A stretch of 56,181 bases of DNA from an uncultured Chlamydiae bacterium. Lineage in GTDB: Bacteria; Chlamydiota; Chlamydiia; Chlamydiales; SM23-39. Within the stretch, counting starts at the first letter, position 1; each line of letters starts with the position of its first letter. A program made the position numbers and the translations under genes. Below, in pieces: positions 6,451 through 46,885 of the stretch. Below the pieces are notes generated by a model. That model worked only from the letters and a program-made list of their open reading frames with translations, was not told the origin of the DNA and ran no database searches. The DNA is taken from contig CALBPE010000013.1 of assembly GCA_937899275.1 (NCBI GenBank), forward strand, positions 1-56,181. The letters are read 5' to 3'.

Positions 6451-7662
6451 TTACTGCATATACCTAGTTAGCATCGCTGCAAAATAGCCGTTTTCCTGTA
6501 AAACCGCCAGTACTATGATAGCGGAAAAAACCCCCAAAAGTACAAATAAATAGGCTTTTTTACACAAAGATTGATAAGAGGGAAGCCGAAAAGCCATTAA
6601 GGTGGGATAAATGCCGAGTAAGATCGCAACAAAAATTGCGGCATATTCTAAAGCAGCGATAAACGCTTTAGGATACACTAGGACAAAAAGTAGAGGAGGG
6701 AAAAACGTCAAAAGTAGCGAACAAATTTTTCGATAGGTAGCGCTTTTTAAAGAAAGTCCATCGGATAAAAAGTCGGACAAACTCAAAGACACCCCGAGAA
6801 AAGAGGTCAAAATTGCAAAAAAAGAAAAAGAAAAAGCAGCGATTTTCACCCAAGGGCTTTGTATGATGCTAGAGATGATATTCGTGATCGACTCTGCATG
6901 AATCCAGGCGGTTTGAAAGCTGTTTTTTCCCTGCAAAGGAATGCTTCCTAATGTGACCAATTCCCAAAGAATATAAACAATGAGCGCAAGAAAACTGCCT
7001 AGAAAAATCACCCTTCTTAGCTGCACTTTATCTCCTGACAAATAGGTAGATAAAGTAGGAATCACAATATGAAAACCAAATGAAGTCAAAATCACTGGAA
7101 TCGCTATTGGCATCAGCTGCGCATCTTCGTGCTGTAAAAGCTGCAAATCCATTTCGGGGAAAATTCCCATAAGTAAAGCGATATAACACAAGACTAGAGC
7201 GCTCATAAACACCCTATTGATCCAATCACAAGACCTCGTACCGAAGTAGAGAAAAAAAGAAAATAGCCCGACAAGAACCGAGGCAATCATCTCTTTTTTC
7301 ACGGAAATAGCTAAAAAGCTCTGTAGAAAAAACCCCAAAGTAGAGCTTGCTCCTGCAATATACGCAGCCGTTAAAGAATAGAGAAGCAACAGATAAAGCG
7401 CCCAGCAAAGGATCTTGGCAGGTTTTCCCAGCATTTTTTCTGACATAGTGAGTAAATTCGTCTGCACCCCGGCAAATAGATGAACATCTAAAAAAATCCA
7501 TGCAGTAGATAACATGCACGCCCACACAAAGATCAGCAAAAATAGTATAGGAAAAAAACCAGAAAATGCATTGGTAGTAGGCATAGCTAGCATACCTGCT
7601 CCAATTGTTGTCCCAGCCACAAGAAAACAGGCGCCAAAAAAACGGCTAATAGATGCGCTCAT
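6451..7662 (-). CDS. tyrP: Aromatic amino acid (Tyr/Trp) permease, HAAAP family, copy 2
   Basis: The ORF track starts at 7731, but the likely start is Met24 (MSASISRFFGACFLVAGTTIGAGMLAMP). That start overlaps the upstream stop as ATGA at 7659-7662. The protein is polytopic and paralogous to the adjacent gene. Confidence 0.8.
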   Translation of the reverse strand: MSASISRFFGACFLVAGTTIGAGMLAMPTTNAFSGFFPILFLLIFVWACMLSTAWIFLDVHLFAGVQTNLLTMSEKMLGKPAKILCWALYLLLLYSLTAAYIAGASSTLGFFLQSFLAISVKKEMIASVLVGLFSFFLYFGTRSCDWINRVFMSALVLCYIALLMGIFPEMDLQLLQHEDAQLMPIAIPVILTSFGFHIVIPTLSTYLSGDKVQLRRVIFLGSFLALIVYILWELVTLGSIPLQGKNSFQTAWIHAESITNIISSIIQSPWVKIAAFSFSFFAILTSFLGVSLSLSDFLSDGLSLKSATYRKICSLLLTFFPPLLFVLVYPKAFIAALEYAAIFVAILLGIYPTLMAFRLPSYQSLCKKAYLFVLLGVFSAIIVLAVLQENGYFAAMLTRYMQ

Positions 7663-8858
7663 GAGATAGCGTTCCAAGTAGCATAGATTTGCTGCAACAA
7701 AACAAAAATGGCGAAAAAAGCAGCGAGACATAGAGAAGCTTTACCTCCCCAAACCTGGTAAGAAGAAGATAGCTTATTTTTATAGCGACCAGACCAAACG
7801 GCAAGTATAGGAAATATACCAAATAATATGACGGCGCAGATCCCCCCTGCAAATCCAATTGCCTGATAAAAAATATGGGGGTAGCTAACCGCAAATACTA
7901 AAGGGGGTACAAGAGTTATGAGGGTAAGACAAAACCGCCATAAAGGGGTAAAAGACCATTGCAAACCATCTTCTAGAAAATGCATGAGGGTCAGGCTTTG
8001 CGCTAAAAAAGAGGTAACGATCGCAAAAAAAGCAAAGCCCTTAGCAAAAGGGCCAATAAATGGAAAATTAAGAGCCACACTTGCCTCTTGTCCTTTGGAA
8101 TAGATCGCATAAATGCCGTTTGAACCTGCAAAAGGAACAAGCCCCATCAAAAGAAGCTGCCATAGCGCGTAGACAAAAAACACAAGAGCGCTTCCTCCAA
8201 GGATCGTTTTTCTAACTCTAAGCCAATCTTCGTCTAAATAATCGCTTAAAGAAGGGATCATATTTTGAAACCCAAATGAAAGGACTAAAACAGGAAGAGA
8301 TAACACAAGATACGAAACATCCATGTGTTGCAGATAAGAGAGTTCCACTTGGGGAAGGCCGATACCGACCATAGCGAAAAAACAGACACCTAAGCCTGCC
8401 ATCAAAAACCGATTACATACATCGGCAATCCCTGTTCCTAAAAATACGATGATGCCAAAAAAAAAGACAAAAGATGCGCTCACGAAACTTTCTGGAATCG
8501 GTAGTCCTAAACTGCGATCGAGCCATGTAGATAAGATCTGGCCGCTTGCAGAAATGTAGGCGACTAAAAGCGAGTAAAATAAAAATAGGTAAAAACAAAA
8601 ACAGAGGGTTTTTGCTTTTTTACCAAGAGCTATTTCCATCATAGAGAGTAAATTGACTCTTTTGGAAAACCAAGAATTCATCTCCAAAAGTAAAAGAGAG
8701 GTAAATGTCATAAATGCGCAAGCAAGAGCTAATAGCGCCATAGAGGGGAAAAAACCAGCCAGGCCTGTAACAATAGGAAGAGCTAACATACCTGCGCCAA
8801 TGCAGCTTCCAGAGACAAGGAGCATGCCTCCGAAAAGGCGGTAATGCTGGATTTTCAT
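7659..8858 (-). CDS. tyrP: Aromatic amino acid (Tyr/Trp) permease, HAAAP family, copy 1
   Basis: 399-aa polytopic ORF with LLVSGSCIGAGMLALP, the motif typical of TyrP/Mtr/TnaB. It has an ATGA overlap with the thyX stop at 8855-8858. Confidence 0.8.
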   Translation of the reverse strand: MKIQHYRLFGGMLLVSGSCIGAGMLALPIVTGLAGFFPSMALLALACAFMTFTSLLLLEMNSWFSKRVNLLSMMEIALGKKAKTLCFCFYLFLFYSLLVAYISASGQILSTWLDRSLGLPIPESFVSASFVFFFGIIVFLGTGIADVCNRFLMAGLGVCFFAMVGIGLPQVELSYLQHMDVSYLVLSLPVLVLSFGFQNMIPSLSDYLDEDWLRVRKTILGGSALVFFVYALWQLLLMGLVPFAGSNGIYAIYSKGQEASVALNFPFIGPFAKGFAFFAIVTSFLAQSLTLMHFLEDGLQWSFTPLWRFCLTLITLVPPLVFAVSYPHIFYQAIGFAGGICAVILFGIFPILAVWSGRYKNKLSSSYQVWGGKASLCLAAFFAIFVLLQQIYATWNAIS

Positions 8859-10483
8859 CCGCGATTTTCCGCTTTTTGCTGAATACGAACTTCTTGATCC
8901 AATCTACCAAGTTCGTAGCCTTCATAGTCAACAAATTTAAAAAAGCGCTCAAATTGGGGCTGATGATCACAAATTTGCTTCGCCATTTCTTGAGCAATGT
9001 ACCGGTAGCTAGGGTGTCCTGCAGGAGAGGAGCGGAGCTCGCAAAGCCACTGCAACGCGCGTAAATTGATATGAAAATACCAGCGGACATTATACGCCAT
9101 TGGAACGATATACTGCGCTTCTTCAGGAAGCTCTTGGGCAATCACCTGGTAGGCTTCTTTAGCTGTTTCCATCGCACTGATATACGGCTTTTCTAAATCG
9201 GTGTTTGCAATTTCACTGGGAAGAAAATAGCCGTAGTTACAAGAAAGCAGCTGCCTTTCTTGCGTTAGAAGCCGGTGGCGGTGCAGGTCTCTATATACCC
9301 CGAAATCTGCTACAATTTCAAAAGTAAAGTTTGCATGCTCCAAAGCTCGTGGAGATTTATGACGTCTATTTTCTCTAGGAACAGAGGCGGCATCTAAAAC
9401 GCGCATAAGATCTTCTTGAGGCATCTGCCTGCACATATTTTGCAGCTGGTCTAATGGAGCTGCTGTATATTCAAAAAGAAGAGCGCCAGCCACTTTATAA
9501 AGAGCGTCGGGATCAGACTCGATGAGTTTGACTCCAGGAGAGCTGACCGCTTCTGCATCTACTAAAGAACTTGCGGCTAGAAGTTTCAGCTCTTTTTTCA
9601 CTTCTTCGGTAAAATCGGAAAAACTCTGTTGGTATTTGTGGCCTATCTCTGCTCTTCTGACAAAAGAGGGAATAACTTTTTTTAGTTCGCCTTGCATAGA
9701 CTTACCCAGCTCATTGAGCTCGGCTAAATTTTGCGTATGCATTTTCTGTACTAACGACTCGAAAAAACGGCCGTTACCAAAAACGCCCATATTCGTTAGA
9801 GCAGAAGCGGGTAAAAGCCCCCGCAAACAGTCGAGTACCTTAGCTCTTAAAGAAGCTTTATAGGCTGCTTGCGAAATATGATGATTTTTAGGGAACTTTG
9901 CCTCGATGATCTCGGTTAGTTGAGGAATCATGTCGCTATAAGTCTGAAAAAGATGGTTGCATGTATCTAAGTAAAGATCCCGGTAAGCAGAGGTCATTAA
10001 GATCGGTTCTTGATAAAATGCATACTCTCCACCAACTTTCTGATCGAAGTAGATGTATCTTGTGGATTTTTCTAAGGGAGAGCCGCCAATGCGTGCATCT
10101 TCAATGTGTTTTGCCGCAATCATCGAAACGTTTTCTATTGCGAGATGGGCTCCTCCAAGTTCCCCAATCGAATCATCTCCATAACCGTCCAAAATCCGAT
10201 CGTAAAAACTCTTAGCTTTTATAATAGCAAATAAATGCTCATCATTGTGCGCTTCGCCAAATTGCCCTGCAATTTCTGTAAAAGCTGTATCTTCGCTCAA
10301 GATAAATTCCTTGAGAAGAAGAGAGCGAAGACCCAAAGTCGACCGGGAGTAACGGGAAAAAAGCGCGCCTTTGATCACTTCGGGTAAATTTCTTAATACG
10401 AATACATTGCCAGTTGTACTCGACACAAATTGCTGCAAGATTTTGATCTGACTTTCAGAGAATTCTTCATAATTTGGGGGCAT
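8855..10483 (-). CDS. thyX: FAD-dependent thymidylate synthase, long chlamydial-type form
   Basis: 542-aa ORF. It has a ThyX-type motif YRDLHRHRLLTQERQ (RHRxxS/T). The N-terminus (FVLRNLPEVIKGALFSRYSRS) is as in the long chlamydial ThyX proteins. Confidence 0.7.
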   Translation of the reverse strand: MPPNYEEFSESQIKILQQFVSSTTGNVFVLRNLPEVIKGALFSRYSRSTLGLRSLLLKEFILSEDTAFTEIAGQFGEAHNDEHLFAIIKAKSFYDRILDGYGDDSIGELGGAHLAIENVSMIAAKHIEDARIGGSPLEKSTRYIYFDQKVGGEYAFYQEPILMTSAYRDLYLDTCNHLFQTYSDMIPQLTEIIEAKFPKNHHISQAAYKASLRAKVLDCLRGLLPASALTNMGVFGNGRFFESLVQKMHTQNLAELNELGKSMQGELKKVIPSFVRRAEIGHKYQQSFSDFTEEVKKELKLLAASSLVDAEAVSSPGVKLIESDPDALYKVAGALLFEYTAAPLDQLQNMCRQMPQEDLMRVLDAASVPRENRRHKSPRALEHANFTFEIVADFGVYRDLHRHRLLTQERQLLSCNYGYFLPSEIANTDLEKPYISAMETAKEAYQVIAQELPEEAQYIVPMAYNVRWYFHINLRALQWLCELRSSPAGHPSYRYIAQEMAKQICDHQPQFERFFKFVDYEGYELGRLDQEVRIQQKAENRG

Positions 10484-18732: not shown

Positions 18733-20274
18733 ATGGATAGGAATGAAAGCGTGCATATGATCGGCATCTATCGAGACGGCAACACCTTTTTTCTAGCGAA
18801 ACTCGCAAGAAAGACAGACACCACCCCCACTCTTTTTTCTTTTTCTGAAACCCATGTAAAGCGCCTTTACAGCGAAGCGCGTGAAGATATAGCAACGGGT
18901 CTAGAGGCAGCTGATGTACTCATCAAACACATCCAACTAAAAGTGCCGCAGAAAAAAGCGCTTTCTCAAATCGCAGCCTACCAAATGAAGTCGTTACATG
19001 TGCTAGACGAAAAAGAAGCGATCACCTTGCCCTTCATCGAAAAAGAAGAAGGAAAAAACACCTATACTCTAACCTGCTTTACAACAGCAAAAAAATCTCT
19101 TAAAAAACACGTAAAAAAATGGCAGCAAGAAGGGATAGACCCAAGCTATGTATCTTCGAGCTCACGCGCACTTTTGCGTTATGCAGAAAAATATGGAACC
19201 GCAAAAAACTCTATGATCCTACTACATCTAGGACTTCGTAAAGTGACGTGCGTACATGTAGATAAGCGCCGCATCAAAAAAGCAAGGACTCTGCGATTAG
19301 GCCTTTCCGATTTGCTAGAAAAAGCGCGTACCTGTGGAAACGCGCCTTTATCTTCCATCCAATTTGAGACCGCCGCCTTAAATCCACCTTCAGGAAAAAA
19401 ACAGGAAATTGCAGAAACAGCGGCTCAAATGAAGGCGGCTATCGTACAAGCAATCCGCTCGTTTTCTTTAGATCGGGCTCTACCACTTTTACTCACAGGT
19501 CATGGTAAACTCACCCCCAACTTCATCGATTATGTCTTCGGAGACGCGCCCGATTTAATAGACCAGATTCTACCCGACTCTCAACAAGAAAAAAACGCTG
19601 CCGACTTAAAGAAATATGCCATCAGTATAGGACTTGCTCTGGACGCCGCTGCAAGCGATGGGACCAACCTGCAATTTAGAACCCAAGAGTTCACCCCAAA
19701 GAAATGGATACAAAGGCGGTTTTGGAAGATGAGCGCCTCTTTGATGACGCTTGTTATAGCAAGTATTGGATCGGCTGTGTTTGCAAGAGCGCTCATCGAA
19801 GAAAAGCAGGAAAAATTTCTAAGAGCGCTGCATACAGCCTATCAAAAAGATTGCATAGAATCTAAGCGCAGTAACATCACAGAGAGGGTAGACAGAAACG
19901 CCGCGGATTTTCTTCACGTATGGAACGAAACACTCGATGCAGAGATGCCTAAAAAAAACTCCCACCTTCGAAAGAGAAATACTGGCCAAGCAATCAAACC
20001 GCTACCCATCATATCTTGGCTTCACACGTTACTCTCTTCCAAAACAGAGGATGTATCGATCGATAGCCTATCGACTTCTTTTACAGAAGATGGGCTTATC
20101 CAAGTCCTTTTATCCTGCGAAATCCCAGAGGATCATGTAGCAGATCTTTTTAAGGAAAAGCTACTTTCCTCCAAACAAAAAGTTGCTGTATCAAAAGGCA
20201 TCTCCTGGAAAAAAACCGATCCCCCAAAAAAATTATACCAAGCTGATTTTTATCTATACCCAGGAGGGTTTTAA
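18733..20274 (+). CDS. Hypothetical bitopic protein: cytoplasmic PilM/GspL-like (degenerate actin-like) domain, one TM segment, then a periplasmic domain (PilM-PilN-type fusion)
   Basis: 513-aa ORF. By eye it aligns blockwise to PilM: IGIYRDGNTFFLAKL vs IGIDISSTSVKLLEL; MILLHLGLRKVTCVHV vs VAVVDIGATMTTLSVL; LLLTGHGKLTPNFIDYV vs IVLAGGTASIQ. This is followed by a PilN-like NLQFRTQEF...RRFWKMSASLMTLVIASIGSAVFA TM helix. The functional call is an inference. Confidence 0.55.
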   Translation: MDRNESVHMIGIYRDGNTFFLAKLARKTDTTPTLFSFSETHVKRLYSEAREDIATGLEAADVLIKHIQLKVPQKKALSQIAAYQMKSLHVLDEKEAITLPFIEKEEGKNTYTLTCFTTAKKSLKKHVKKWQQEGIDPSYVSSSSRALLRYAEKYGTAKNSMILLHLGLRKVTCVHVDKRRIKKARTLRLGLSDLLEKARTCGNAPLSSIQFETAALNPPSGKKQEIAETAAQMKAAIVQAIRSFSLDRALPLLLTGHGKLTPNFIDYVFGDAPDLIDQILPDSQQEKNAADLKKYAISIGLALDAAASDGTNLQFRTQEFTPKKWIQRRFWKMSASLMTLVIASIGSAVFARALIEEKQEKFLRALHTAYQKDCIESKRSNITERVDRNAADFLHVWNETLDAEMPKKNSHLRKRNTGQAIKPLPIISWLHTLLSSKTEDVSIDSLSTSFTEDGLIQVLLSCEIPEDHVADLFKEKLLSSKQKVAVSKGISWKKTDPPKKLYQADFYLYPGGF

Positions 20275-20867
20275 TGAAAAGCCCTCTTTATCTACGATTA
20301 GGCAAGCTTTGGATGAAACCTAGCATCTTTTGGATCACAATCGTATCTGCTTTTTCCATTGGCTTTTTGATCTCTTTCTTCTCTGTATATTCTGTGAAAA
20401 AAAGCGCCGCTTTTTATCAAAAAGCTGCCTACATACTGAAAAAAGCAGAAACGACATACCCTCTTCGTATGCAAGAAAAAAAGAGAAAAAACCAGAGCCA
20501 TTCCTCTACTTTCTTGATCGACGCATTGGAAAAAAAAGATTTTGGTCTAAGAGAAAACCACCCCCTCCTGCAGCTAGCAAATCACCCCATTTTCCAGGCG
20601 CATCCTACAGTAAAAAAAACCAAGATGCTGTTGCAAAAAAAGCGCATGCAGTTTTCTTGCGTAGAAGAAAATGCTTCTGCTCAAACGCGTTACCAGCAAA
20701 AAAAACCGATTTACGCATACCCAGAAGAAATCATCGAAGTGTTTTCTCTTTTAGACAAAGAGCCCTCTTATCAACTTGTCCAAGCTTCTTTACAAAGAGT
20801 AGCTACCCCAGGACTAGAAGATCTTTTTTCCTTTTCTATAGAACTTTTAGAACAAAAAAATAGCTAA
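20274..20867 (+). CDS. Hypothetical bitopic membrane protein (PilO/GspM-like topology)
   Basis: 197-aa ORF with one N-terminal TM helix (IFWITIVSAFSIGFLISFFSVY) and then a ~150-aa soluble domain. Its start overlaps the upstream stop (TAATG). Confidence 0.5.
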   Translation: MKSPLYLRLGKLWMKPSIFWITIVSAFSIGFLISFFSVYSVKKSAAFYQKAAYILKKAETTYPLRMQEKKRKNQSHSSTFLIDALEKKDFGLRENHPLLQLANHPIFQAHPTVKKTKMLLQKKRMQFSCVEENASAQTRYQQKKPIYAYPEEIIEVFSLLDKEPSYQLVQASLQRVATPGLEDLFSFSIELLEQKNS

Positions 20868-20868
20868 T

Positions 20869-22140
20869 ATGAAATCTTTTTTTCCCTTATTCCTTGCATG
20901 CACCGCCTTTTGCTCTTGCAGCTCTTCTTTTGATGAGGAAGGGATCATCTGCATACAAATCAAAGATGCAAGTGGTCGATCAGAAACATTCAACACCAAA
21001 GAGAGAATCGAAAAATTTGCCCAAATCGATTTTTTCCATCCACAGCCGTATACACAGGTCACCAGAATTTTCAATAAAGAACAAAATGATCATAGCCGCT
21101 CCATCATCACTTCGTACCACCCCAACGGCAACATCAAACAATACCTTGAAGGGATCGACTCTGTTGCAAAAGGCTCCTACCAAGAATGGCATGCAAATGG
21201 CGCAAAAAAAATTGATGCTACCGTAGTAGGCGGTCCATTCAATTTGCATTATAGCGCGCAAAAAGATTGGTTATTTGACGGAACATCCAAAGTGTGGGAT
21301 GAGGAAAACCACTTGCTAGCAGAAATTCAGTATGACTTAGGTATGTTAGAGGGAGTTTCCACCTACTACTATAAACAAGGAGAGATCAAAACCAAAATCC
21401 CTTATAAAAAAAACCAAATTGATGGCCTGTTTTTATCTTATTACCCATCGGGAGCTTTAAAAACCCAAGAAAGCTATAAAAAGGGGATAAAACAAGGCAC
21501 ATCAATAGGGTATTGGGAAAATGAACAACCTACTTTTTTAGAAGAATACGAAGAGGGTCTACTACAAACCGCAGTTTACCATGATATCAATGGAGATGTG
21601 TTAGGAGAGATTGCCAACGGATGCGGCGAAAAGATCTTATGGAAGGCAGATTTTCTCGAAAAAAAGATCTCCTACCTTGCAGGAAAGCCCGAGGGTAAAG
21701 TGATCCTTTACGCAAGTTCAGGAGATGTTTCAGGGCAATACGAGCAAAAAGATGGGCAAAAGCAAGGTAAAGAAACGCTTTTTTACCCTAGAAAAACTCT
21801 CGAGGAAAAACTTCAACCAAAACTGCAGGTCGAATGGGATAGAGATATGATCCACGGCTTAGTCAAAACTTGGTATCCTTGCGGTACATTGGAAAGCCAA
21901 AAAGAATATGCGCAAAACAAAAAAAATGGCATGTGCTGCGCTTGGTATAAAAACGGCTCTCTTATGCTATTAGAAAAATACGAAAATGATCTTTTATCAA
22001 GCGGCAGCTACTACCAAAAAGATGACCCTTCTCCCACTTCCAAAGTGAGTAAAGGCTCGGGAATAGCGGTGATATATGATGGAAAATCGGGGCAGTTCCT
22101 AAGAAAAATCGCCTACGAAAACGGAAAACCGCAAGAATAG
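20869..22140 (+). CDS. MORN-repeat (YwqK-type) lipoprotein
   Basis: 423-aa ORF with a lipobox-like N-terminus MKSFFPLFLACTAFCSC. It has repeated Y(Y/H)xNGxxKxxxxYxxGxxxG units (e.g. YYKQGEIKTKIPYKKNQIDGLF, YYPSGALKTQESYKKGIKQG). It starts 2 nt after the preceding gene. Confidence 0.7.
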   Translation: MKSFFPLFLACTAFCSCSSSFDEEGIICIQIKDASGRSETFNTKERIEKFAQIDFFHPQPYTQVTRIFNKEQNDHSRSIITSYHPNGNIKQYLEGIDSVAKGSYQEWHANGAKKIDATVVGGPFNLHYSAQKDWLFDGTSKVWDEENHLLAEIQYDLGMLEGVSTYYYKQGEIKTKIPYKKNQIDGLFLSYYPSGALKTQESYKKGIKQGTSIGYWENEQPTFLEEYEEGLLQTAVYHDINGDVLGEIANGCGEKILWKADFLEKKISYLAGKPEGKVILYASSGDVSGQYEQKDGQKQGKETLFYPRKTLEEKLQPKLQVEWDRDMIHGLVKTWYPCGTLESQKEYAQNKKNGMCCAWYKNGSLMLLEKYENDLLSSGSYYQKDDPSPTSKVSKGSGIAVIYDGKSGQFLRKIAYENGKPQE

Positions 22141-22144
22141 CTCC

Positions 22145-22579
22145 CTACTTTTTTCTATTTTTTCGAGGATTACTAGATTGCGAAGCGTCTTTTTTTTCCT
22201 GTTTTTTTCGAGGACATGTGTAATTACCTGAGCAAGAATTTGCCTGCACGTAAGATCCTGGGTTGACATGGCGGCAAATTGAATACGACGCTCCCTGAGC
22301 GCATTTCCATACTACAATATAGGGCGTAATGGTTTCTTGATACGCATAACCTGGAATAGACAAGGGGATTTTTTTACGCGTAGACTCCCGCATATTACCT
22401 GCAGGGGCAAACGTCTTTTGGGCAACGAATTGTCCCGTTCTTGTCTGCACAATTGCGGTTAATACGTAAGGAGAGTCGTTTACAAGAAAAAGCGCATCGG
22501 CCTGTAGTACACAAGGGCAAATGCCCATGAAAAAAACAAGGCCGAATAGAAAAAACCGATCACATAGCGCAAAGAACAA
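22145..22579 (-). CDS. Small secreted Cys-containing hypothetical protein with a basic tail
   Basis: 144-aa ORF with a signal-like N-terminus (FFLFGLVFFMGICPCVLQA), several mature-region Cys and a C-terminal K/R-rich tail. It uses a TTG start in the track and is convergent with the MORN lipoprotein gene. Confidence 0.45.
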   Translation of the reverse strand: MFFALCDRFFLFGLVFFMGICPCVLQADALFLVNDSPYVLTAIVQTRTGQFVAQKTFAPAGNMRESTRKKIPLSIPGYAYQETITPYIVVWKCAQGASYSICRHVNPGSYVQANSCSGNYTCPRKKQEKKDASQSSNPRKNRKK

Positions 22580-22678: not shown

Positions 22679-23722
22679 ATGAATAAATTATCTGTCTTTC
22701 TTTGCCTCTTTTGTTCCCTCTCTCCTCTTTTTTCCTGGTCAAAAGAGGTAGACTGTTTTGATGATCCCGATCTCTATTCAGAAGAAGTGCAGCTGTCTGG
22801 CTTCAACCACGCAACGAATTTTGATCTTGGTGAATACCGCGCTTTTTTAACGAAAGGGTTGTTCTTTTGGCAAGCGCAACAAGAAAATATGTCGCCAGGA
22901 CTCATCCGCTCTACTTCTAGTAGCGCTCTTAATTCAGAAACAATCGAGCTAAAACAAAGCTATGAGCCCGGTTTTTCCATTGCGGGCGGCTACCGCACCC
23001 ATCATGGAGACTGGCAAATTCAGTTGGGATGTACCTACTTCCGTTCTCATGTGCGCTCTCCCAATACTTCTCTTAGCGCAGACAGCGGAAAAGAAGTTGT
23101 TCCTTTCTGGGCGCATGCTAACCACGGCTTAGGCGCTTTTTTATCGGAAGAGTCCAACTGGAAATTACACAACTACATCTTCGACGGTTTTTTGTATCGC
23201 AGGTATTATGTAGGCGAACTGCTCCTATTTTCTACTCAGATAGGACTGCGCTCTTATCTTTGCAACCAGAAATTCCTGGTGAAATATGCCGGTCCCTCCA
23301 CCACATTAGAATCCTACAACGCAGCAGATTCTTGGAACTTTGGTCCGAGATGGGCAGCTTCTTCCTCTTGGTTTTTAGGATCTGGCCTAAGACTTATTGG
23401 AAAAACAGGTGCAAGCCTTGCTTATGCAAAATACACCCTTTCTCATAACGAAAAAAACTCGACCAATACCACTATCTTCAAAATAAAAGACGACCGCTAT
23501 CGATTAGCCTCTGCAGCTGAACTATCAGCAGGTATTGGCTGGGGCGCCTCTTTTTTTCAACAAACATTTCATCTGGATTTAGAGCTTTCTTATGACCTTC
23601 TTGCTTTATTCGGACAAAATATGATGCAGCCTCTGATCGCACCATTTGCTGTGTCTTTTGAAAAAAGCAGCCAGACACTTTATCTGCAAGGATTTACCTT
23701 TATTATGCGAAGCGATTTTTAA
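22679..23722 (+). CDS. MOMP-like outer-membrane beta-barrel porin, paralog A
   Basis: 347-aa ORF with a signal peptide (MNKLSVFLCLFCSLSPLFS). It has alternating amphipathic strands and a C-terminal aromatic residue (LYLQGFTFIMRSDF). It is clearly paralogous to the next two genes. Confidence 0.7.
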   Translation: MNKLSVFLCLFCSLSPLFSWSKEVDCFDDPDLYSEEVQLSGFNHATNFDLGEYRAFLTKGLFFWQAQQENMSPGLIRSTSSSALNSETIELKQSYEPGFSIAGGYRTHHGDWQIQLGCTYFRSHVRSPNTSLSADSGKEVVPFWAHANHGLGAFLSEESNWKLHNYIFDGFLYRRYYVGELLLFSTQIGLRSYLCNQKFLVKYAGPSTTLESYNAADSWNFGPRWAASSSWFLGSGLRLIGKTGASLAYAKYTLSHNEKNSTNTTIFKIKDDRYRLASAAELSAGIGWGASFFQQTFHLDLELSYDLLALFGQNMMQPLIAPFAVSFEKSSQTLYLQGFTFIMRSDF

Positions 23723-23725
23723 GAG

Positions 23726-24804
23726 TTGATCATGAAATACATCCCCCTTATTCCCTTATGTGTAGCAATTTTCCAATTATGTTTTTCTCCAAACATATTG
23801 GCAGCGTCCGAAGTGGATCTATTTTTTGATCCATTTGATCACTGCAAAGAAGAGCTTCTTCCCGGGTACAATAAACCGGCCAATATTGACGTTTGTAGCA
23901 AAGAGGAAAAGCTATTTTCTTCTTTCTCATTTCTGTACTTAGAAGCGGCAGAAGATGGACTGGAAATAGGATTTTTTAACCCTGATAGCGAGGAGCTATT
24001 TTCTGCAAATAACCCAAACTGATCGTTCATTAAAACCCCTTTTCTTTTAGCCCCGGTTTTCGCATGGCCATAGGTACGCATATCGATGAAGATGATTGGG
24101 ATTTTTCCGCTCAATATACCTGGTTTCATAAGACCACAAAAAAAGAAGCATCGGCTCCACAAAATGCAAGCATTGAACCTCTTTGGCTATATGATATTAG
24201 CGCATCTACCCCTGCCAGGGGCCTGTCTAGCAAATGGCGGCTTACTGTTGATCTACTCGATGCAGAAATGGGTAAGTCCTACTACCTTTCCACAGAAAAC
24301 ATAGTCCGTCCTTTTTGGGGCGCTAGAATTGCGTGGATCGCACAAAAATTTTCCCCTTCATATCAAATTGCAGGGCAAAATATCTCTTCAAAAAACCAGA
24401 TCCGTTCTTGGGGAGCGGGGCTTAGAACGGGATTAAATACCAATTGGATGATCGGTGGGGGATTCACACTTCTTGCCAACATGTCGACAAGCGTTCTATT
24501 TACCCACTACAAAGTCAAGACATCGCAACAAAGTATCGCCAATCCAAGAGAGACTGCTCTAAGTGCATCAGAAACACCTGATTATGTACGGGCAGAAACA
24601 AGCGGCGCTATGGGACTTTCCTGGGGATCGTATCTATTCAATAGTCTACTGCATGTAAACATCTCCGCTTTATATGAACTACAAACATTTTGGAAACAAA
24701 ATCTATTCGGCGCAAGCTTTGGAGGTATTGCCAATCGATCTGCAAAGGGAAGCTCGGACCTACATTTACATGGATTGAACCTCACCATGCGTTTGGATTT
24801 TTAG
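23726..24804 (+). pseudogene. MOMP-like porin paralog B, disrupted (premature TGA plus frame change)
   Basis: The N-terminal 98 aa (signal peptide + EVDLFFDPFD... motif) end at TGA 24020-24022. Conserved sequence resumes in another frame, open from 24034 (NPFSFSPGFRMAIGTH...), and runs to the family C-terminus LNLTMRLDF. The two parts sum to the paralog length. Confidence 0.6.
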
Positions 24805-24825
24805 ATATACATCAGGAAGTATAGC

Positions 24826-25881
24826 ATGCAATATTTACACACCCTCACAAAACCTTTTCTACTTAGCTTATGTTTTTTATCCCCTGTTTTTCTAAGTGGA
24901 AAAGCCCCCATTCTATCTGATGTTTGCGCAGAACACAGCGATTACAATGCGCCTTATCCTGGCGAAGATGCTGCATCATTAGATGCATACATCATAGGAT
25001 CATTCACCTACTGGCAGCCTTTAGAAGAGGGTTTAGAACTAGGTCTAATCACCAATTCTAATGCATTTACCCCCACAACAAACGGCCGGGTAATCCAAAC
25101 AGAATTCCAGTATGAACCAGGATTTAAAACAACGCTGCATTTGGGAGGGTTTCCCGATCACTGGTCTATGCAGATACATTACCTCTATTTTCGCACCTCT
25201 ACGCAAACAGCAGAAACCGTCTCTTCTCAATCTAAGCTATATACAAACCGTCTACAAGAAGCGAATGCGGCTTTTGCAGATAGTGTACGCTCTTCTTGGA
25301 AAGCCCGAATGGAACACATCGATACAGATATTGCCAGAGCCTGCTACACAGGACAAAAGCTGCTATTTACCCCCTATTTTGGAGGTAGGCTATTGCTATT
25401 TCGCCAAACAATCAATACGACATACCAAGGCGGTCAGATCACTGCCGCGAGTAATGAAGCTTCTCAATTTGCCCGATCTCGATCTTGGGGACTTGGTCCG
25501 AAAACAGGGATCCTTTCTTCTTGGAGGCTACCTTTAGGATTTAGTATAGAAGGAGAAAACGCCTTCAGTCTACTCTACACCCGCTATAGAGTGGAGATGG
25601 AGGAAACAACAACATCTTCTGAGCAAAACCGAGGGTTTTCTCTGAACCAAGTGCGCTACGCTTTTCGGCCCCAGTACGAAATGCGCTTGGGCGGTAAATG
25701 GTCTTCTAACTGGGAAGAATCCTACGTACAAATAGGCGTCTGTGCCCTATATGAATTTTTCGTTTTATGGCATCAAAATATGTTTTCTTCTGTGCAAGTA
25801 AACCCGATTACCAGACCATCTGCTCCTTTAAATGACTTTTATCTTCAAGGGTTAACAATCAGCGCTCAGCTAGAGTTTTAA
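24826..25881 (+). CDS. MOMP-like outer-membrane beta-barrel porin, paralog C
   Basis: 351-aa ORF with a signal peptide. It shares YEPGFK, SWGLGPKTG and the C-terminal FYLQGLTISAQLEF with paralogs A and B. Confidence 0.7.
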   Translation: MQYLHTLTKPFLLSLCFLSPVFLSGKAPILSDVCAEHSDYNAPYPGEDAASLDAYIIGSFTYWQPLEEGLELGLITNSNAFTPTTNGRVIQTEFQYEPGFKTTLHLGGFPDHWSMQIHYLYFRTSTQTAETVSSQSKLYTNRLQEANAAFADSVRSSWKARMEHIDTDIARACYTGQKLLFTPYFGGRLLLFRQTINTTYQGGQITAASNEASQFARSRSWGLGPKTGILSSWRLPLGFSIEGENAFSLLYTRYRVEMEETTTSSEQNRGFSLNQVRYAFRPQYEMRLGGKWSSNWEESYVQIGVCALYEFFVLWHQNMFSSVQVNPITRPSAPLNDFYLQGLTISAQLEF

Positions 25882-34854: not shown

Positions 34855-35613
34855 CTAAGTAATCAGTAGCTTCACTTCTTCTAGTAAGCCTTCAATGGCT
34901 TTTTTTTGTTTGTCTGTTGGCTTGAAATGCCGTTCATTTGCTAAAGAAGATAGCTTTTTCAATAACCGAATAGCGCTAAGAGCTCCATTAGATCCCCGTT
35001 TGTCCGATTCGGTTAGGGGAAATACATTCCGAATAATCATCAAAAGCTCTTCTTTAGATTGACCGGTGTAATATTCAATAATTTCTCTTTTATAGTTTTC
35101 AGCGATCTCTTTGGAAGCGCTTGTCTTACTCGATCTACTAGCGAGTGTATAGACAACTTGCCTTGGCATGGTATCGAGTTTTTCCTGCAGTTCTACAGGT
35201 AAAGAGGTGTAAAACAGATAGTACTGTAAAAAGTTGTAGGGAGTCTGCCGGTTGCCATAAGTGGCAATTAGCCAGGAGGTAAACGCGCCATCTTTATAAG
35301 GTTTTAACAGGTCTTGCGCCTTTTTGATGCGCTCTCCATGAAGCATAATGGCTTGGCTTGTGATCGCTTTTACTTCTGATGTGATTTGAATTAGATCTTG
35401 CAGATCGCTTTCTACGTGGCAGTCTTTTTCTTCTTTGAAGCTTTCTAATAACTCTTCTAACGACTCCTTTTCCTCTGGAAGAAGCTCTTCTATACGGAAT
35501 ACCCCAGAAAAGCTCGATAGGCCTCCATTGGACGTTCTTTTTGCAAGAGCGTTCATTTTTTGTTTATCTTTTGTCTTTAGCCTAAGGCTTAGTAAAGAGT
35601 TAAATTTCGCCAT
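34855..35613 (-). CDS. pGP6-D-related protein (chlamydial plasmid partition-partner homolog)
   Basis: 252-aa ORF. FTSWLIATYGNRQTPYNFLQYYLFYTSLPVELQEKLDTMPRQVVYTLASR aligns with my recollection of C. trachomatis pGP6-D (FSSWIELVFRTKSSAYNALAYYELFINLPNQTLQKEFQSIPYKSAYILAAR). It sits directly downstream of parA. Confidence 0.75.
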   Translation of the reverse strand: MAKFNSLLSLRLKTKDKQKMNALAKRTSNGGLSSFSGVFRIEELLPEEKESLEELLESFKEEKDCHVESDLQDLIQITSEVKAITSQAIMLHGERIKKAQDLLKPYKDGAFTSWLIATYGNRQTPYNFLQYYLFYTSLPVELQEKLDTMPRQVVYTLASRSSKTSASKEIAENYKREIIEYYTGQSKEELLMIIRNVFPLTESDKRGSNGALSAIRLLKKLSSLANERHFKPTDKQKKAIEGLLEEVKLLIT

Positions 35614-35632
35614 GATGCTGCCTTTGTGTTCT

Positions 35633-36394
35633 TTATGGTGATAAGCGGGCTATGATATCGCTTGTCAGTTTTTTGTAATCTTCCGCAGCCTTACTTTTCG
35701 GAGCGGTAGCAAATACAGGCCCTCCGTAAATGGCTGCATCAGAGATGCTGATGTCTCTTCGCACCTTAGGTGAAAAGATTTTTCCTGGAAAGGTATCTTC
35801 AATTACCTCTAAAAAAGATCCATTGCTTTTTCCCCTATCGTTCCAAAAAGAAAGGGAGACGCCCAAAACCTGTAGAAAATGCCTTTCTGCGATATTTTCC
35901 ATGAAGATAGCTAGCCTTTGTAGGCCCTTGATGCTGTAAAACTCAGGGGTGGCGCATACAAGAGAGTTATTCGCTGCAATAAGCGAAGACTCGGTAAGCC
36001 AACATAAAGAAGGGGGCGTATCGATTAAGATGAAATCATAATCTAAAGGATCGAGGATTTTTTTCAGCCTTTCATGAGAATAGCGATCTGCTGCTAATGC
36101 TCCTGTGACTTCCACACGCTCAAGCCAGGTATCTGCTGGCACTAGATCAAGACGTTTTATGGCTGTCGACAAACAGACGGAAGAAAACTCTTTTTCTCCT
36201 TGTAAGACGGGAGCTATACTATCTTGTTCATCGGGATCAAATCCGAGGCCTGTCGTTAGATTGGCCTGCGCATCAAAGTCGATTAGAAGTACTTTTTTCC
36301 TGTGGAATGTAGCCAGGGCCGCACCTACATGCAACGTCGTCGATGTTTTTGCTGTGCCGCCTTTAAAACTGGTGACTGCAATGATTTGTTTCAA
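35633..36394 (-). CDS. parA: ParA/MinD-family partition ATPase
   Basis: 253-aa ORF with the deviant Walker A FKGGTAKTST, plus LIDFDAQAN and LIDTPPS. Confidence 0.87.
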   Translation of the reverse strand: MKQIIAVTSFKGGTAKTSTTLHVGAALATFHRKKVLLIDFDAQANLTTGLGFDPDEQDSIAPVLQGEKEFSSVCLSTAIKRLDLVPADTWLERVEVTGALAADRYSHERLKKILDPLDYDFILIDTPPSLCWLTESSLIAANNSLVCATPEFYSIKGLQRLAIFMENIAERHFLQVLGVSLSFWNDRGKSNGSFLEVIEDTFPGKIFSPKVRRDISISDAAIYGGPVFATAPKSKAAEDYKKLTSDIIARLSP

Positions 36395-38494: not shown

Positions 38495-39286
38495 ATGTTG
38501 CGCACCGGCTTTTGCTTATTTTTCCTTCCTTTTTCTTTCATATTATCTGCCCCTGTTTCTGATTCCTCTTCACCAGCTGTTTTACAACAAGGGATCTTTC
38601 TAGAAGAAAACAACTGGGGAAATGTGCAGGCGGGCTATGAAGGCAACTTTGTTTTTGACCGAAGGCTAGCGCGTTATGCAGATGGCGAAAAACGCATCGA
38701 TCGCTACGAAATCTACATCCAATCGGGAGATATTCAGTTAGATTGGCAAGATAAGTTCAGTGTTTTCACCACTCTTGGCAGCGGGAAAATTGACACAGAT
38801 TTTCAGATTGTTGCTAACGGATACTGCCGCCGCGCTGTACTCAAATCTGCAGAAGACTTTTCCTGGTCTTTAGGCTTAAAAGCTTTACTTGCTTCTTGGA
38901 AAAACCTACACGTAGGTGCAGGTTGTCGCTACACTACGTTAGAGCCTTTACTTCATTTTTTTTCTTTAGACGGAGAGCTAGTCGATACAAACGGGCAAAG
39001 GCTGCATTTTAGAGAGTGGCAAGTAAACGTAGGCGTTTCCTACGAAGTGGGATTTTTTACTCCTTACATAGGCAGCAAATATACCCAAGCTAGGTCGCAT
39101 GTGGAGCTGCCTACATCTTCAAATGGGATTACCGAAGATGAAAAAAAACAGTTTTTTCGCAGCAGGCAAAATTTCGGTCTTTATCTAGGATGCACCATTA
39201 CCCCTAGAAAGTTATTTTTTGTCACATTAGAAACGCGTTTAATCGATGAAGAAGCCGTAAGTGTATTTGCAACACTACGGCTTTAA
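38495..39286 (+). CDS. Small MOMP-family outer-membrane protein
   Basis: 263-aa ORF with a signal peptide. The N-terminal GYEGNFVFDRRL matches the chlamydial MOMP/PorB motif GYYGDFVFDRVL. It has a beta-strand periodicity. Confidence 0.6.
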   Translation: MLRTGFCLFFLPFSFILSAPVSDSSSPAVLQQGIFLEENNWGNVQAGYEGNFVFDRRLARYADGEKRIDRYEIYIQSGDIQLDWQDKFSVFTTLGSGKIDTDFQIVANGYCRRAVLKSAEDFSWSLGLKALLASWKNLHVGAGCRYTTLEPLLHFFSLDGELVDTNGQRLHFREWQVNVGVSYEVGFFTPYIGSKYTQARSHVELPTSSNGITEDEKKQFFRSRQNFGLYLGCTITPRKLFFVTLETRLIDEEAVSVFATLRL

Positions 39287-46700: not shown

Positions 46701-46885
46701 TTTTATGGAAGGATGAGGCGGCGTTTTTACAAAAACTAGAGGGATGGCAAAGGCAAAAAGATCCGTATATTACATGGCTTTTTCCGTTTGTTGAGGAAAA
46801 TACCATATTCGATACTACAAGCATTTGGAGGGATTGGAAACCCTATTTAGACAGCGTTTTCTCGTCTTTGAAGGAGATATTTTGA
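43754..46885 (+). CDS. recC: Exodeoxyribonuclease V gamma subunit
   Basis: 1043-aa ORF with a RecC-like N-terminus (FLSNSFEVLAEAL). It lies immediately upstream of recB, and its stop overlaps the recB start (TGATG). Confidence 0.82.
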   Translation: MYTHFLSNSFEVLAEALRVSLLSTPPLEKKWIVFPAKNPPCKDWLIFHWLQRSQEAVTGVEWVTIKEFFSFLKQSQNGFCPSHQKKDLQEDALFFSLLDHFARVKSDPSFQELNDYLAKGDALSSHFLRKEIARLFMRYGVYGESEVRSWKKTPPAKLSWQEKLFVDVLEKEDLTCPVLEEEKVGFSGFSVHLFGFSYLPSAYLDRLFSLAKTVLVSQYQLSFSPFFWQDMLSDRAKTHAPMISSEEETHHRLLANLGGLQKRYYAQLNRYDFASREGYVEPQLIASGKRGETTLLSSIQQSIYQAEQQKEAKAVDDSIHIGAFAASKLREVEGLFDAIQHWKKNDPSLSFADIMVVAPDIVEYVPYIEFVFSNQGIPLHIAEKSAASNSALLQGFLRYLRLIQSSFLLQDVVEFLRLEPVYSCFGLTKEDVDVVSTYLEKAGIVAGKDAQHLMSSGFAINKHLENSACKRTWKSGLQRILWSFLYEGKPDQLLDFATEPLDAISSDCIPIFSRFLEFFSLLEKDADFLEEKKERPLYEWAEFLHSSLDRYYRVSKKGADPLYSEIQSLIEKTQTYRLDALLSFHAYAKFLEERLEKKRLKKTPALSKALFFQSIGDGSFYPVQALGFLGMQEDAFPVKERASSLDLLKSYAPSLQEKSRMQFLEGLLSVEKYLWISYQRLSFSDGKEQPLSSCVQELISHIEDQYGVAEKDLIRKHPAAAYHPQLFEEDSPYPSFSAPFFSAAKAAILGGAKKPTFTFRFPKEIPAMVESASLFQLRSFAKNPVKTYVNASLGVFFDRKEEKNPFEISPLDRFHYKQKAQHLPMQKVLEKAKASERLPPGLFQENAALKLIQEAALCENALSYFGLEKKELQELSKHLVLPMGQKQISLTCSFTSILDKGRGIFIDGEAKKSQMIRMWPVVLAYLCYSDTSSCSIYFTNKGKPKSMAISLKDPAADLLHFIAYYSLGKNHLSPMIPFVAEELLWKDEAAFLQKLEGWQRQKDPYITWLFPFVEENTIFDTTSIWRDWKPYLDSVFSSLKEIF

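What the first reader, a model, noticed from the sequence alone, without database searches (positions are those of the whole stretch)
18733..22140. Translationally coupled PilM/N-like, PilO/GspM-like and MORN-lipoprotein trio: candidate unannotated secretion/pilus alignment module
Three genes are packed with a 1-nt overlap (TAATG at 20272-20276) and a 2-nt gap. Gene 1 (513 aa) aligns by eye, block for block, with the actin-like PilM fold, but its nucleotide-binding residues are replaced (LHLGL for DIGA, TGHG for AGG). It then continues into a PilN-like 'NLxxR...TM helix' and a periplasmic domain, which is the architecture of GspL. Gene 2 (197 aa) is a bitopic protein of PilO/GspM size and topology. 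Gene 3 is a lipoprotein in the slot where PilP (lipoprotein) or GspC sits, but it is built from MORN/YwqK repeats instead. The M-N-O-P(lipoprotein) order is the canonical inner-membrane alignment subcomplex of type IV pili and T2SS. As far as I know, chlamydial T2SS loci are annotated without GspL/M/C equivalents. This trio could be the missing platform, or a repurposed envelope-spanning module with a novel MORN outer partner.
Basis: partly seen in the sequence, partly recalled or inferred. Interest (0 to 1): 0.7.

Follow-up and report, generated by a model that had tools for sequence, protein, structure and literature searches.

The report
Chlamydial PilM-like membrane protein operon
Three tightly packed genes, kept together across the whole chlamydial phylum, encode a membrane-anchored relative of the pilus-assembly protein PilM, a small single-pass membrane protein and a MORN-repeat lipoprotein. 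They are a good but unproven candidate for the inner-membrane platform that the chlamydial type II secretion system appears to lack.

Summary
Three same-strand ORFs of 513, 197 and 423 aa lie at 18733-22140. The first junction is a TAATG overlap; the second is a 1-nt gap, not 2.

- **Gene 1.** The N-terminal ~310 residues are homologous to type IV pilus PilM. A 100-member family profile hits Thermus PilM at E 1e-17, Foldseek ranks PilM first, and 39 of 80 members hit Pfam PilM_2. ATP-binding motifs are degenerate. A conserved INFRQxEF-type motif, one TM helix and a periplasmic domain predicted as alpha-beta-beta twice follow. This is the fused PilM+PilN layout of GspL.
- **Gene 2.** It is a bitopic orphan of PilO/GspM size and topology. 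No profile or fold search showed homology, so this part is unproven.
- **Gene 3.** It is a MORN_2-repeat lipoprotein, not a PilP/GspC-type protein.
- **Conservation.** The trio is kept in 59 of 61 informative chlamydial loci, but no locus has T2SS or T4P core genes within ~10 kb.
- **C. trachomatis.** By synteny and size the trio probably corresponds to CT646-CT648, which are hypothetical and co-induced mid-late.

My best reading (confidence ~0.5) is a T4P-derived assembly platform for the chlamydial T2SS, which published work says lacks GspL and GspM. I class it as a new variant of a known kind.

The parts
18733..20274 (+). Gene 1, 513 aa. It is a PilM-like cytoplasmic domain fused to a TM helix and a periplasmic domain (GspL-like architecture). 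An alternative start at 18757 (Met9) is possible.
   Evidence: ORF. Family of >600 representatives at E<1e-30. Profile against PDB, PilM at 1e-17. Foldseek, PilM first.
18757..19653 (+). PilM-homologous actin-like domain (aa ~9-307). The ATP motifs are degenerate: H165 replaces the phosphate-2 Asp, and T255-G-H-G replaces GGG.
   Evidence: Alignment to Thermus PilM 2ych across the whole domain. Column frequencies. Pfam PilM_2 in 39 of 80 members, T2SSL in 11 of 80.
19669..19692 (+). Conserved juxtamembrane motif L-Q-F-R-T-Q-E-F. The family consensus is [ILV][NQ]FR[QK]x[ED]F, with F and R in more than 95% of members. It resembles the PilM-binding N-terminal motif of PilN and HofN (INLLP / INFLPWR).
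   Evidence: HofN sequence. The resemblance is an inference, not a test.
19729..19800 (+). Single TM helix of gene 1 (aa 333-356). The flank charges, +4 on the N side and +1 on the C side, place the N-terminus in the cytoplasm.
   Evidence: Hydropathy and flank charges. Long helix 323-376 in the AF2 model.
19801..20271 (+). Periplasmic part of gene 1: a coiled helix, then a domain (aa 424-508) predicted as alpha-beta-beta-alpha-beta-beta. This is the two-alpha-beta-beta topology of PilN, PilO and GspM.
   Evidence: AF2 secondary structure, pLDDT 65-86 in this region. No sequence match to PilN, PilO, GspL or GspM.
20272..20276 (+). TAATG stop/start overlap between gene 1 and gene 2 (translational coupling).
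   Evidence: Overlaps or gaps of 11 nt or less at this junction in all ten loci with called genes.
20274..20867 (+). Gene 2, 197 aa. It is a bitopic membrane protein with a TM at aa 15-41, a long helix to about aa 73 and a C-terminal alpha/beta domain. It is an orphan chlamydial family and a positional and topological analogue of PilO/GspM.
   Evidence: ORF. 849 homologues, all hypothetical and without Pfam. AF2 model. No significant PDB or Foldseek hit, with PilO 5uvr only at E 1.2.
20869..22140 (+). Gene 3, 423 aa. It is a lipoprotein with a signal peptide and invariant Cys15, built from MORN_2 repeats. It is the best conserved of the three (36-56% identity).

Best explanation
The three genes form one operon that encodes an inner-membrane-anchored, envelope-spanning scaffold derived from the PilM-PilN-PilO alignment subcomplex of type IV pili.

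- **Gene 1.** A catalytically dead, PilM-type actin-fold domain sits in the cytoplasm. It is fused, as in GspL, through a PilN-like juxtamembrane motif and one TM helix to a periplasmic alpha-beta-beta x2 domain.
- **Gene 2.** This bitopic protein is its periplasmic and membrane partner, playing the PilO/GspM role.
- **Gene 3.** This MORN-repeat lipoprotein takes the place of the PilP/GspC connector towards the outer membrane or secretin.
- **Function.** Chlamydiae have only one known type IV filament machine, the 'T2SS' (GspD/E/F/G), and it is reported to lack GspL and GspM. The trio most likely serves as that machine's missing assembly platform, docking the GspE ATPase and GspF on the cytoplasmic side.

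**Shown here:** PilM homology of gene 1, its fused topology, its degenerate ATP motifs, phylum-wide conservation and coupling of the trio, and the MORN lipoprotein identity of gene 3.

**Inferred:** pairing of gene 1 with gene 2, the connector role of gene 3, and the link to the T2SS.
For: - **PilM homology.** The family profile hits T. thermophilus PilM at E 1.1e-17 over the entire N-domain, M. xanthus PilM at 3e-14 and P. aeruginosa PilM at 7e-10.
- **Fold.** Foldseek on the AF2 model ranks PilM structures first (2e-9), ahead of FtsA, ParM and MreB.
- **Family models.** Pfam PilM_2 is hit by 39 of 80 members and T2SSL by 11 of 80. NCBIfam pilM, the Amuc_1101-family PilM-like model and GspL are the only consistent hits.
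- **Architecture.** One TM follows the PilM domain, then a periplasmic domain predicted a-b-b-a-b-b. GspL is described as a PilM+PilN fusion, GspM as PilO and GspC as the lipoprotein PilP (10.1101/525063).
- **Operon.** The trio is conserved in 59 of 61 loci, with overlapping or near-abutting junctions.
- **Vacant role.** Chlamydial T2SS 'apparently lack ... the assembly proteins GspLM' and look chimeric, with non-T2SS-like secretin, pilin and platform (PMC6668835; PMC6711533).
- **Sister phylum.** In Verrucomicrobia, the related Amuc_1101 PilM-like protein is encoded next to a secretin, Amuc_1098 (PMC5332112).
- **C. trachomatis.** CT646 (459 aa), CT647 (192 aa) and CT648 sit directly before CT649 (5-FTHF cyclo-ligase) and recA (CT650), as the trio does in L001, L006 and L011. 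They are co-induced 3.9-4.8-fold as one block.
Against: - **Gene 2.** No homology to PilO, PilN or GspM was detectable by Pfam, two PDB profiles, hhalign against E. coli HofN, HofO and GspM, or Foldseek.
- **No internal paralogy.** The C-terminal region of gene 1 and gene 2 match only through their TM helices.
- **Gene 3.** It lacks the HR beta-sandwich domain that lets PilP and GspC bind the secretin.
- **No genomic link.** The trio is never within ~10 kb of gspD/E/F/G/O or pilQ-like genes in 93 loci, nor in this 56-kb window.
- **Uninformative co-occurrence.** Both the T2SS and the trio are universal in the phylum, so co-occurrence says nothing.
- **Untested T2SS neighbours.** The uncharacterised genes of the C. 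trachomatis T2SS neighbourhood (CT565-CT568) could not be examined and might supply L/M-like functions.
- **Model quality.** Both AF2 models are only of moderate confidence (pLDDT 62 and 66).
- **Orthology.** The CT646-648 assignment rests on synteny and length, not on a sequence comparison.
Confidence: 0.5

Rival explanations
1. The trio is a stand-alone envelope module. A PilM-derived, ATPase-dead cytoplasmic scaffold has been co-opted for a chlamydia-specific process unrelated to the T2SS. Candidates are envelope remodelling during RB-to-EB conversion, cell polarity or division, or tethering of inner and outer membranes through the MORN lipoprotein.
For: - The trio is never linked genomically to T2SS or T4P core genes in 93 loci.
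- Gene 2 and gene 3 have no detectable relation to PilO/GspM or PilP/GspC.
- The probable C. trachomatis orthologues belong to the mid-late, indirectly sigma-54-dependent set associated with membrane reorganisation. The core gsp genes are not listed there (PMC7482065).
- MORN repeats are generally membrane- or protein-tethering modules (general knowledge).
Against: - All characterised PilM, GspL and Amuc_1101-type proteins work in secretin- or pilus-type machines.
- The fused PilM-TM-periplasmic layout followed by a bitopic partner gene is precisely that of GspL-GspM.
- FtsA, the divisome relative, scores far below PilM.
- Chlamydiae have a T2SS with the corresponding roles vacant.
Confidence: 0.28
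2. The trio is the PilMNO(P)-like platform of a DNA-uptake (competence) pseudopilus, comparable to Thermus PilMNO or E. coli HofMNOP. This could be the same GspD/E/F/G machine used in a second role.
For: - The best PDB match is the Thermus 'competence protein PilM'.
- The family resembles T4aP PilM more than GspL.
- The trio frequently lies next to recA, and recBCD is in this window.
- Chlamydia is naturally competent (my own knowledge, not checked here).
Against: - Proximity to recA is weak evidence and may be mere synteny.
- No comEA, comEC or pilin genes are nearby.
- Nothing here distinguishes DNA uptake from protein secretion.
Confidence: 0.12
3. The three genes are functionally unrelated neighbours, and the resemblance to PilM is a generic actin-fold similarity.
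For: The window protein itself gives no Pfam or NCBIfam hit.
Against: - Same order, same strand and near-abutting junctions occur in 59 of 61 loci across lineages sharing only 13-40% identity, even where the flanking genes differ.
- PilM is specifically the top hit by profile and by fold, over FtsA, ParM and MreB.
Confidence: 0.03

Closest known systems
Type IVa pilus PilM (Pfam PF11104 PilM_2, TIGR01175) together with PilN
   Same: The actin-like fold is homologous over the whole domain (E 1e-17 to Thermus PilM). PilM is the best fold match. A conserved I-N-F-R-type motif before the TM recalls the PilN N-terminal peptide that binds PilM. The predicted periplasmic alpha-beta-beta x2 topology matches PilN.
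   Different: - PilM and PilN are fused into one polypeptide.
- The ATP-binding residues are lost (Asp to His, GGG to TGxG).
- Scores stay below the TIGR01175 cutoff.
- No pilO, pilP or pilQ genes are adjacent.
- The periplasmic domain has no sequence match to PilN.
T2SS GspL-GspM(-GspC) assembly platform (PF05134 / TIGR01709; PF04612)
   Same: - The architecture matches: a nucleotide-free actin-like cytoplasmic domain, one TM and a periplasmic domain.
- It is followed by a translationally coupled ~200-aa bitopic partner.
- T2SSL is hit by 11 of 80 members and TIGR01709 at up to 41 bits.
   Different: - It is closer to PilM than to GspL (PDB GspL E 0.9 against PilM 1e-17).
- It is not in a gsp operon.
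- Gene 2 has no detectable GspM similarity.
- The third gene is a MORN lipoprotein rather than GspC, which has a TM, an HR domain and a PDZ domain.
Akkermansia Amuc_1101-family PilM-like protein (NCBIfam NF045709) in the Amuc_1098-1102 / MUL2 cluster
   Same: - Both come from the PVC superphylum.
- Both are long PilM-like proteins, and the match extends past the TM region (P0006 residues 75-399 to model positions 76-419).
- Both are encoded with small signal- or TM-bearing partner proteins.
   Different: - The match is only 17-47 bits against a 650-bit cutoff, so the chlamydial family is not a member.
- The Akkermansia cluster includes a secretin (Amuc_1098) and a pilin-like protein. The chlamydial trio has neither nearby.
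- Gene 2 shows no PDB match at all at E≤10. I did not check that Amuc_1100 is in the PDB copy.
PilP (T4aP lipoprotein) / GspC connector
   Same: It occupies the third position after the M/N- and O-like genes. It is a lipoprotein, like PilP.
   Different: The fold is entirely different. It is a MORN_2 beta-hairpin repeat protein of ~420 aa rather than a ~170-aa HR beta-sandwich. Its Cys+2 residue is Ser, Ala or Thr, which is compatible with outer-membrane sorting.

Membership tests
PilM (PF11104 / TIGR01175) | Actin-like (FtsA-type) fold homologous to PilM over the full domain | tested here: met
   Family profile against PDB: 2ych 1.1e-17, 3jc8 3e-14, 5eox 7e-10. Foldseek ranks PilM first at 2e-9.
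PilM (PF11104 / TIGR01175) | Score above the curated family threshold | tested here: not met
   The window protein has no hit. The relative P0006 passes the Pfam gathering score (43.6 against 27), and 39 of 80 members hit at E<0.01. TIGR01175 scores are 20-62 bits against a cutoff of 133.
PilM (PF11104 / TIGR01175) | Intact ATP-binding motifs (phosphate-1, phosphate-2, adenosine) | tested here: not met
   The phosphate-2 Asp is His in 112 of 151 members and Asp in only 11. The adenosine motif GGG is T-G-x-G. The window has Y13, H165 and TGHG.
PilM (PF11104 / TIGR01175) | Soluble protein encoded with separate pilN, pilO, pilP and pilQ | tested here: not met
   It is fused to a TM and a periplasmic domain. 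No HofN, HofO, HofP or HofQ-like genes occur in 93 loci.
GspL (PF05134 / TIGR01709) | Cytoplasmic actin-like domain, single TM and periplasmic domain in one polypeptide | tested here: met
GspL (PF05134 / TIGR01709) | Sequence match above the family threshold | tested here: not met
   T2SSL is hit by 11 of 80 members, best 5.4e-7. TIGR01709 reaches at most 41 bits against a cutoff of 65. PDB GspL 4pht scores E 0.9.
GspL (PF05134 / TIGR01709) | Encoded inside a gsp operon next to gspM; binds the GspE N1 domain | tested here: not met
   The operon context is absent. Binding to GspE is not testable with these tools.
PilO / GspM (gene 2) | Bitopic N-in protein of ~150-210 aa with TM, coiled coil and periplasmic domain | tested here: met
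   TM at 15-41. Helix 5-73, then an alpha/beta C-terminal region.
PilO / GspM (gene 2) | Sequence or profile similarity to PilO, PilN or GspM | tested here: not met
   Pfam on 9 members found nothing. PDB profiles of 9 and 47 sequences found nothing. hhalign against HofN, HofO and GspM gave probabilities below 1%.
PilO / GspM (gene 2) | Ferredoxin-like alpha-beta-beta x2 periplasmic fold | tested here: inconclusive
   The AF2 model (pLDDT 66) shows the second alpha-beta-beta unit (150-193), but region 124-143 is unresolved. Foldseek's best hit is E 0.36. PilO 5uvr scores E 1.2 with TM 0.40.
PilP / GspC (gene 3) | HR beta-sandwich domain that binds the secretin N0 domain | tested here: not met
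   The whole protein is MORN_2 repeats. The best PDB match is the SET7/9 MORN region.
MORN_2 repeat proteins (PF07661) (gene 3) | Score above the Pfam gathering threshold | tested here: met
   59.2 bits against 29.6. All 9 of 9 orthologues hit.
Bacterial lipoprotein (gene 3) | Signal peptide ending in a lipobox L-x-[GAS]-C | tested here: inconclusive
   The Cys is invariant in 9 of 9 sequences and sits in a canonical box in most homologues (LTSC, LAGC, LIGC, LTAC, LSSC, LTGC). The window has TAF-C with a second Cys at 17. No dedicated predictor was run.
Amuc_1101 family (NF045709) | Equivalog score of at least 650 bits | tested here: not met
   17-47 bits.

The most novel reading that the evidence does not exclude
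The trio, probably CT646-CT648 in C. trachomatis, is the long-missing inner-membrane assembly platform of the chlamydial type II secretion system. On this reading it is built from a T4aP-type PilM-PilN fusion, a partner so diverged that it is unrecognisable as PilO/GspM, and a new MORN-repeat lipoprotein that replaces PilP/GspC as the link to the secretin. It is encoded away from gspD/E/F. This would explain why the system looks incomplete and chimeric in comparative genomics.
Probability: 0.45. Interest if true: 0.75.

Novelty: new variant of a known kind. Interest (0 to 1): 0.6.

Why it matters
**The gap.** The chlamydial T2SS exports virulence and metabolic proteins. Yet comparative genomics classifies it as an incomplete, chimeric 'generic' system because no GspL, GspM or minor pseudopilins are found (PMC6668835).

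**What this offers.** A phylum-wide, tightly coupled operon whose first product is a demonstrable PilM/GspL-type scaffold gives a concrete candidate for the missing platform. [quoted passage not shown] They can be tested with existing genetics such as CRISPRi and conditional expression.

**If confirmed.** It would show that a MORN-repeat lipoprotein can replace the PilP/GspC connector, and that the platform genes of a type IV filament machine can be dispersed in the genome.

**If not.** A PilM-derived scaffold working outside any pilus or secretion machine would be unusual in its own right.

Tried and rejected
- **Direct family scans.** Pfam and NCBIfam scans of the three window proteins gave only chance-level hits for genes 1 and 2.
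- **Gene 2, single-sequence search.** It found only itself. I needed locus-derived homologues and a profile search to reach the family.
- **Gene 2, homology tests.** All were negative or insignificant: PDB profiles A2 and A4, Pfam per member, hhalign against E. coli HofN, HofO, HofP, GspM, GspC and GspL, hhalign against the C-terminal region of gene 1, and Foldseek.
- **Gene 1 against E. coli proteins.** hhalign of the N- and C-parts against single E. coli HofM and GspL sequences was too weak to be informative (probability at most 11%).
- **Structure prediction.** I used A4 instead.
- **Genome-collection scan.** It used an over-specific pattern and returned only one locus, already known. As a result I could not obtain Chlamydiaceae sequences, and CT646-648 orthology is not confirmed by sequence.
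- **Sigma-54 promoter.** A -24/-12 search found no site upstream of gene 1, and the overall count was below the shuffle mean. The sigma-70 and terminator scans were also at or below chance.
- **FtsA/divisome reading.** Rejected because PilM scores far better.
- **Literature.** I found no paper describing this trio, CT646 as PilM-like, or MORN proteins in Chlamydia.

Full report
**1. Observation**

The stated region holds three + strand ORFs: 18733-20274 (513 aa), 20274-20867 (197 aa) and 20869-22140 (423 aa).

- The first junction is TAATG at 20272-20276, a one-base stop/start overlap.
- At the second junction, TAA ends at 20867 and ATG starts at 20869.
- A purine-rich AGGAAAGGG lies 13-21 nt before the first ATG.
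- Homologues begin at the equivalent of Met9, so 18757 is a possible alternative start.
- The window is chlamydial. It has a 735-aa GreA, a double ThyX, a UPF0137/pGP6-D-like gene and a MOMP-like fragment. It is identical to a 56,181-nt contig present in NCBI, ENA and Logan.

**2. Gene 1 is a PilM homologue with GspL-like architecture**

The window protein alone hits nothing in Pfam or NCBIfam. Homology emerges only through its relatives.

- A word-indexed search found only five relatives. One of them, P0006 (25% identity), passes the Pfam gathering score for PilM_2 (43.6 bits).
- An exhaustive profile search found a large family: 614 representatives at E<1e-30, all full length.
- A 100-member profile matches solved PilM structures over the whole N-terminal domain:
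  - Thermus thermophilus 2ych, E 1.1e-17 (profile 8-318 to PilM 14-373).
  - Myxococcus, 3e-14.
  - Pseudomonas, 7e-10.
  - Vibrio GspL reaches only E 0.9.
- Individually, 39 of 80 members hit PilM_2 and 11 of 80 hit T2SSL.
- NCBIfam gives pilM (TIGR01175), the Akkermansia Amuc_1101-family PilM-like model and GspL (TIGR01709). All are below their curated cutoffs.
- An AlphaFold2 model of moderate quality (pLDDT 62) retrieves PilM structures first (E 2e-9), ahead of FtsA, ParM and MreB.

The nucleotide-binding motifs are degenerate across the family.

- The phosphate-2 Asp is His in 112 of 151 members (window LHLGL).
- The adenosine GGG is T-G-x-G (window TGHG).

After the last actin-fold helix (YA[IV][PS]IGLAL) comes a nearly invariant motif, [ILV][NQ]-F-R-[QK]-x-[ED]-F. 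It resembles the PilM-binding N-terminus of PilN (E. coli HofN: INFLPWR).

- A single TM follows at aa 333-356, with positive charge on the N side.
- After a long helix, the C-terminal domain is predicted as alpha-beta-beta-alpha-beta-beta (aa 424-508, pLDDT 65-86).
- To my knowledge this two-alpha-beta-beta topology is that of PilN, PilO and GspM.
- No sequence similarity to those families was detectable.
- A PilM+PilN fusion is how GspL is described in the literature (10.1101/525063).

**3. Gene 2**

Gene 2 belongs to a family of at least 849 proteins. All are hypothetical and without Pfam domains, and those that carry a name are chlamydial. It evolves fast, with 13-26% identity among the loci I examined.

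- It has one TM (aa 15-41) and a long helix to about residue 73.
- The C-terminal region has helices at 96-122, an unresolved segment and a beta-alpha-beta-beta unit at 146-193.
- No homology test was significant:
  - Profiles of 9 and 47 sequences against PDB found nothing.
  - hhalign against E. coli HofN, HofO and GspM, and against the C-terminal part of gene 1, matched only TM helices.
  - Foldseek's best hit was E 0.36. PilO 5uvr appears only at E 1.2 with TM 0.40.
- Gene 2 is therefore PilO/GspM-like in size, topology and position only.

**4. Gene 3**

- It hits MORN_2 above threshold (59.2 bits), as do all nine orthologues tested.
- The best PDB match is the MORN region of SET7/9.
- An invariant Cys (C15) follows a short hydrophobic leader and sits in a canonical lipobox in most orthologues. 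The window's own box is atypical.
- It is the most conserved of the three proteins (36-56% identity).
- It is not a PilP/GspC-type protein.

**5. Conservation and context**

- The same three families occur in the same order and strand, with overlaps or gaps of a few bases, in ten loci with called genes. This holds even where the upstream genes differ.
- With 80 further metagenomic loci, 59 of 61 loci that have at least 2.1 kb downstream keep both partners directly after the PilM-like gene. One exception, L041, has a helicase-containing insertion.
- tblastn with E. coli GspC/D/E/F/G/L/M/O and HofM/N/O/P/Q found nothing at E≤1e-3 in 1.04 Mb from 93 loci.
- The window itself encodes no T2SS or T4P core gene.

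**6. Relation to C. trachomatis**

- In several loci the trio is followed by a 5-formyltetrahydrofolate cyclo-ligase gene and recA.
- In C. trachomatis, CT649 and CT650 are those two genes.
- CT646 (459 aa) and CT647 (192 aa) are 'Chlamydiaceae-specific' hypotheticals of matching size.
- CT646-CT648 are induced together 3.9-4.8-fold on sigma-54 over-activation, without a sigma-54 promoter of their own, as mid-late genes.
- I could not obtain the sequences, so this orthology is an inference.
- No -24/-12 element precedes gene 1 in the window.

**7. Interpretation**

[quoted passage not shown] It also describes them as chimeric, with secretin, pilin and platform not clustering with true T2SS (PMC6668835; PMC6711533).

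A conserved PilM-type scaffold with GspL architecture and a coupled bitopic partner fits the vacant role. Its greater similarity to T4aP PilM than to GspL fits the chimeric picture. In the sister phylum Verrucomicrobia, the related Amuc_1101 protein is encoded with a secretin.

I therefore favour a dispersed, T4P-derived assembly platform for the chlamydial T2SS, with confidence about 0.5. The MORN lipoprotein would be a novel connector. The rivals are:

- A stand-alone envelope module tied to late development (0.28).
- A competence-pseudopilus platform (0.12).
- Unrelated neighbours (0.03, effectively excluded).

**8. Novelty and score**

- Less divergent members are already auto-annotated as 'pilus assembly protein PilM'. 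The PilM resemblance is therefore not new in databases.
- I found no paper describing the trio, its MORN partner or a link to the T2SS.
- It is best classed as a new variant of a known kind.
- Interest is 0.6. It makes an acknowledged gap in chlamydial secretion biology directly testable, but the functional link is still inferential and two of the three components have no demonstrated homology to the proposed counterparts.

Noticed in passing
window 22145-22579 (-): A 144-aa ORF with an N-terminal hydrophobic segment and no Pfam match runs convergent to the trio. Small ORFs of similar size sit at the same position in L003, L008, L009 and L011, so it is probably a real conserved exported protein of unknown function.
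   Followed up: partly
window 22679-25881 (+): There are three tandem paralogues of Legionella_OMP-family (PF05150) beta-barrel proteins. The middle copy is split into 23726-24022 (N-terminal 98 aa) and 24064-24804 (profile starts at position 62), which lie in different frames. This suggests a frameshifted pseudogene or an assembly error.
   Followed up: partly
window 8855-10483 (-): A ThyX of 542 aa has two Thy1 stretches, so it looks like a tandem-duplicated flavin-dependent thymidylate synthase. The same long form is present in L003.
   Followed up: no
window 34855-36394 (-): A UPF0137 (pGP6-D-like) gene sits directly next to a ParA/MinD-type ATPase gene. This is a chromosomal copy of a pair resembling chlamydial plasmid partition genes.
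   Followed up: no
window 38495-39286 (+): A 263-aa ORF has only a short match to Chlam_OMP (MOMP, profile 264-300) plus a weak OMP_b-brl match. It may be a small MOMP-related barrel or a remnant.
   Followed up: no
window 6451-8858 (-) and 46825-51764 (+): Two tandem Trp/Tyr permease paralogues are present, and the mechanical ORFs overlap by about 70 nt. The recB and recD ORFs overlap by about 230 nt. The true starts are probably downstream of the first in-frame start codons.
   Followed up: no
L041 11922-18854: In one metagenomic relative, the PilM-like gene is followed by a 307-aa unknown ORF and a convergent 1898-aa helicase-like ORF instead of the usual two partners. This looks like an inserted defence or mobile island that disrupts the operon.
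   Followed up: partly
window 19879 region (gene 1 residue ~383): The ENA copy of the protein (P0001) differs from the window translation by one residue (…SNIPERV… against …SNITERV…). A near-identical strain or assembly therefore exists.
   Followed up: no
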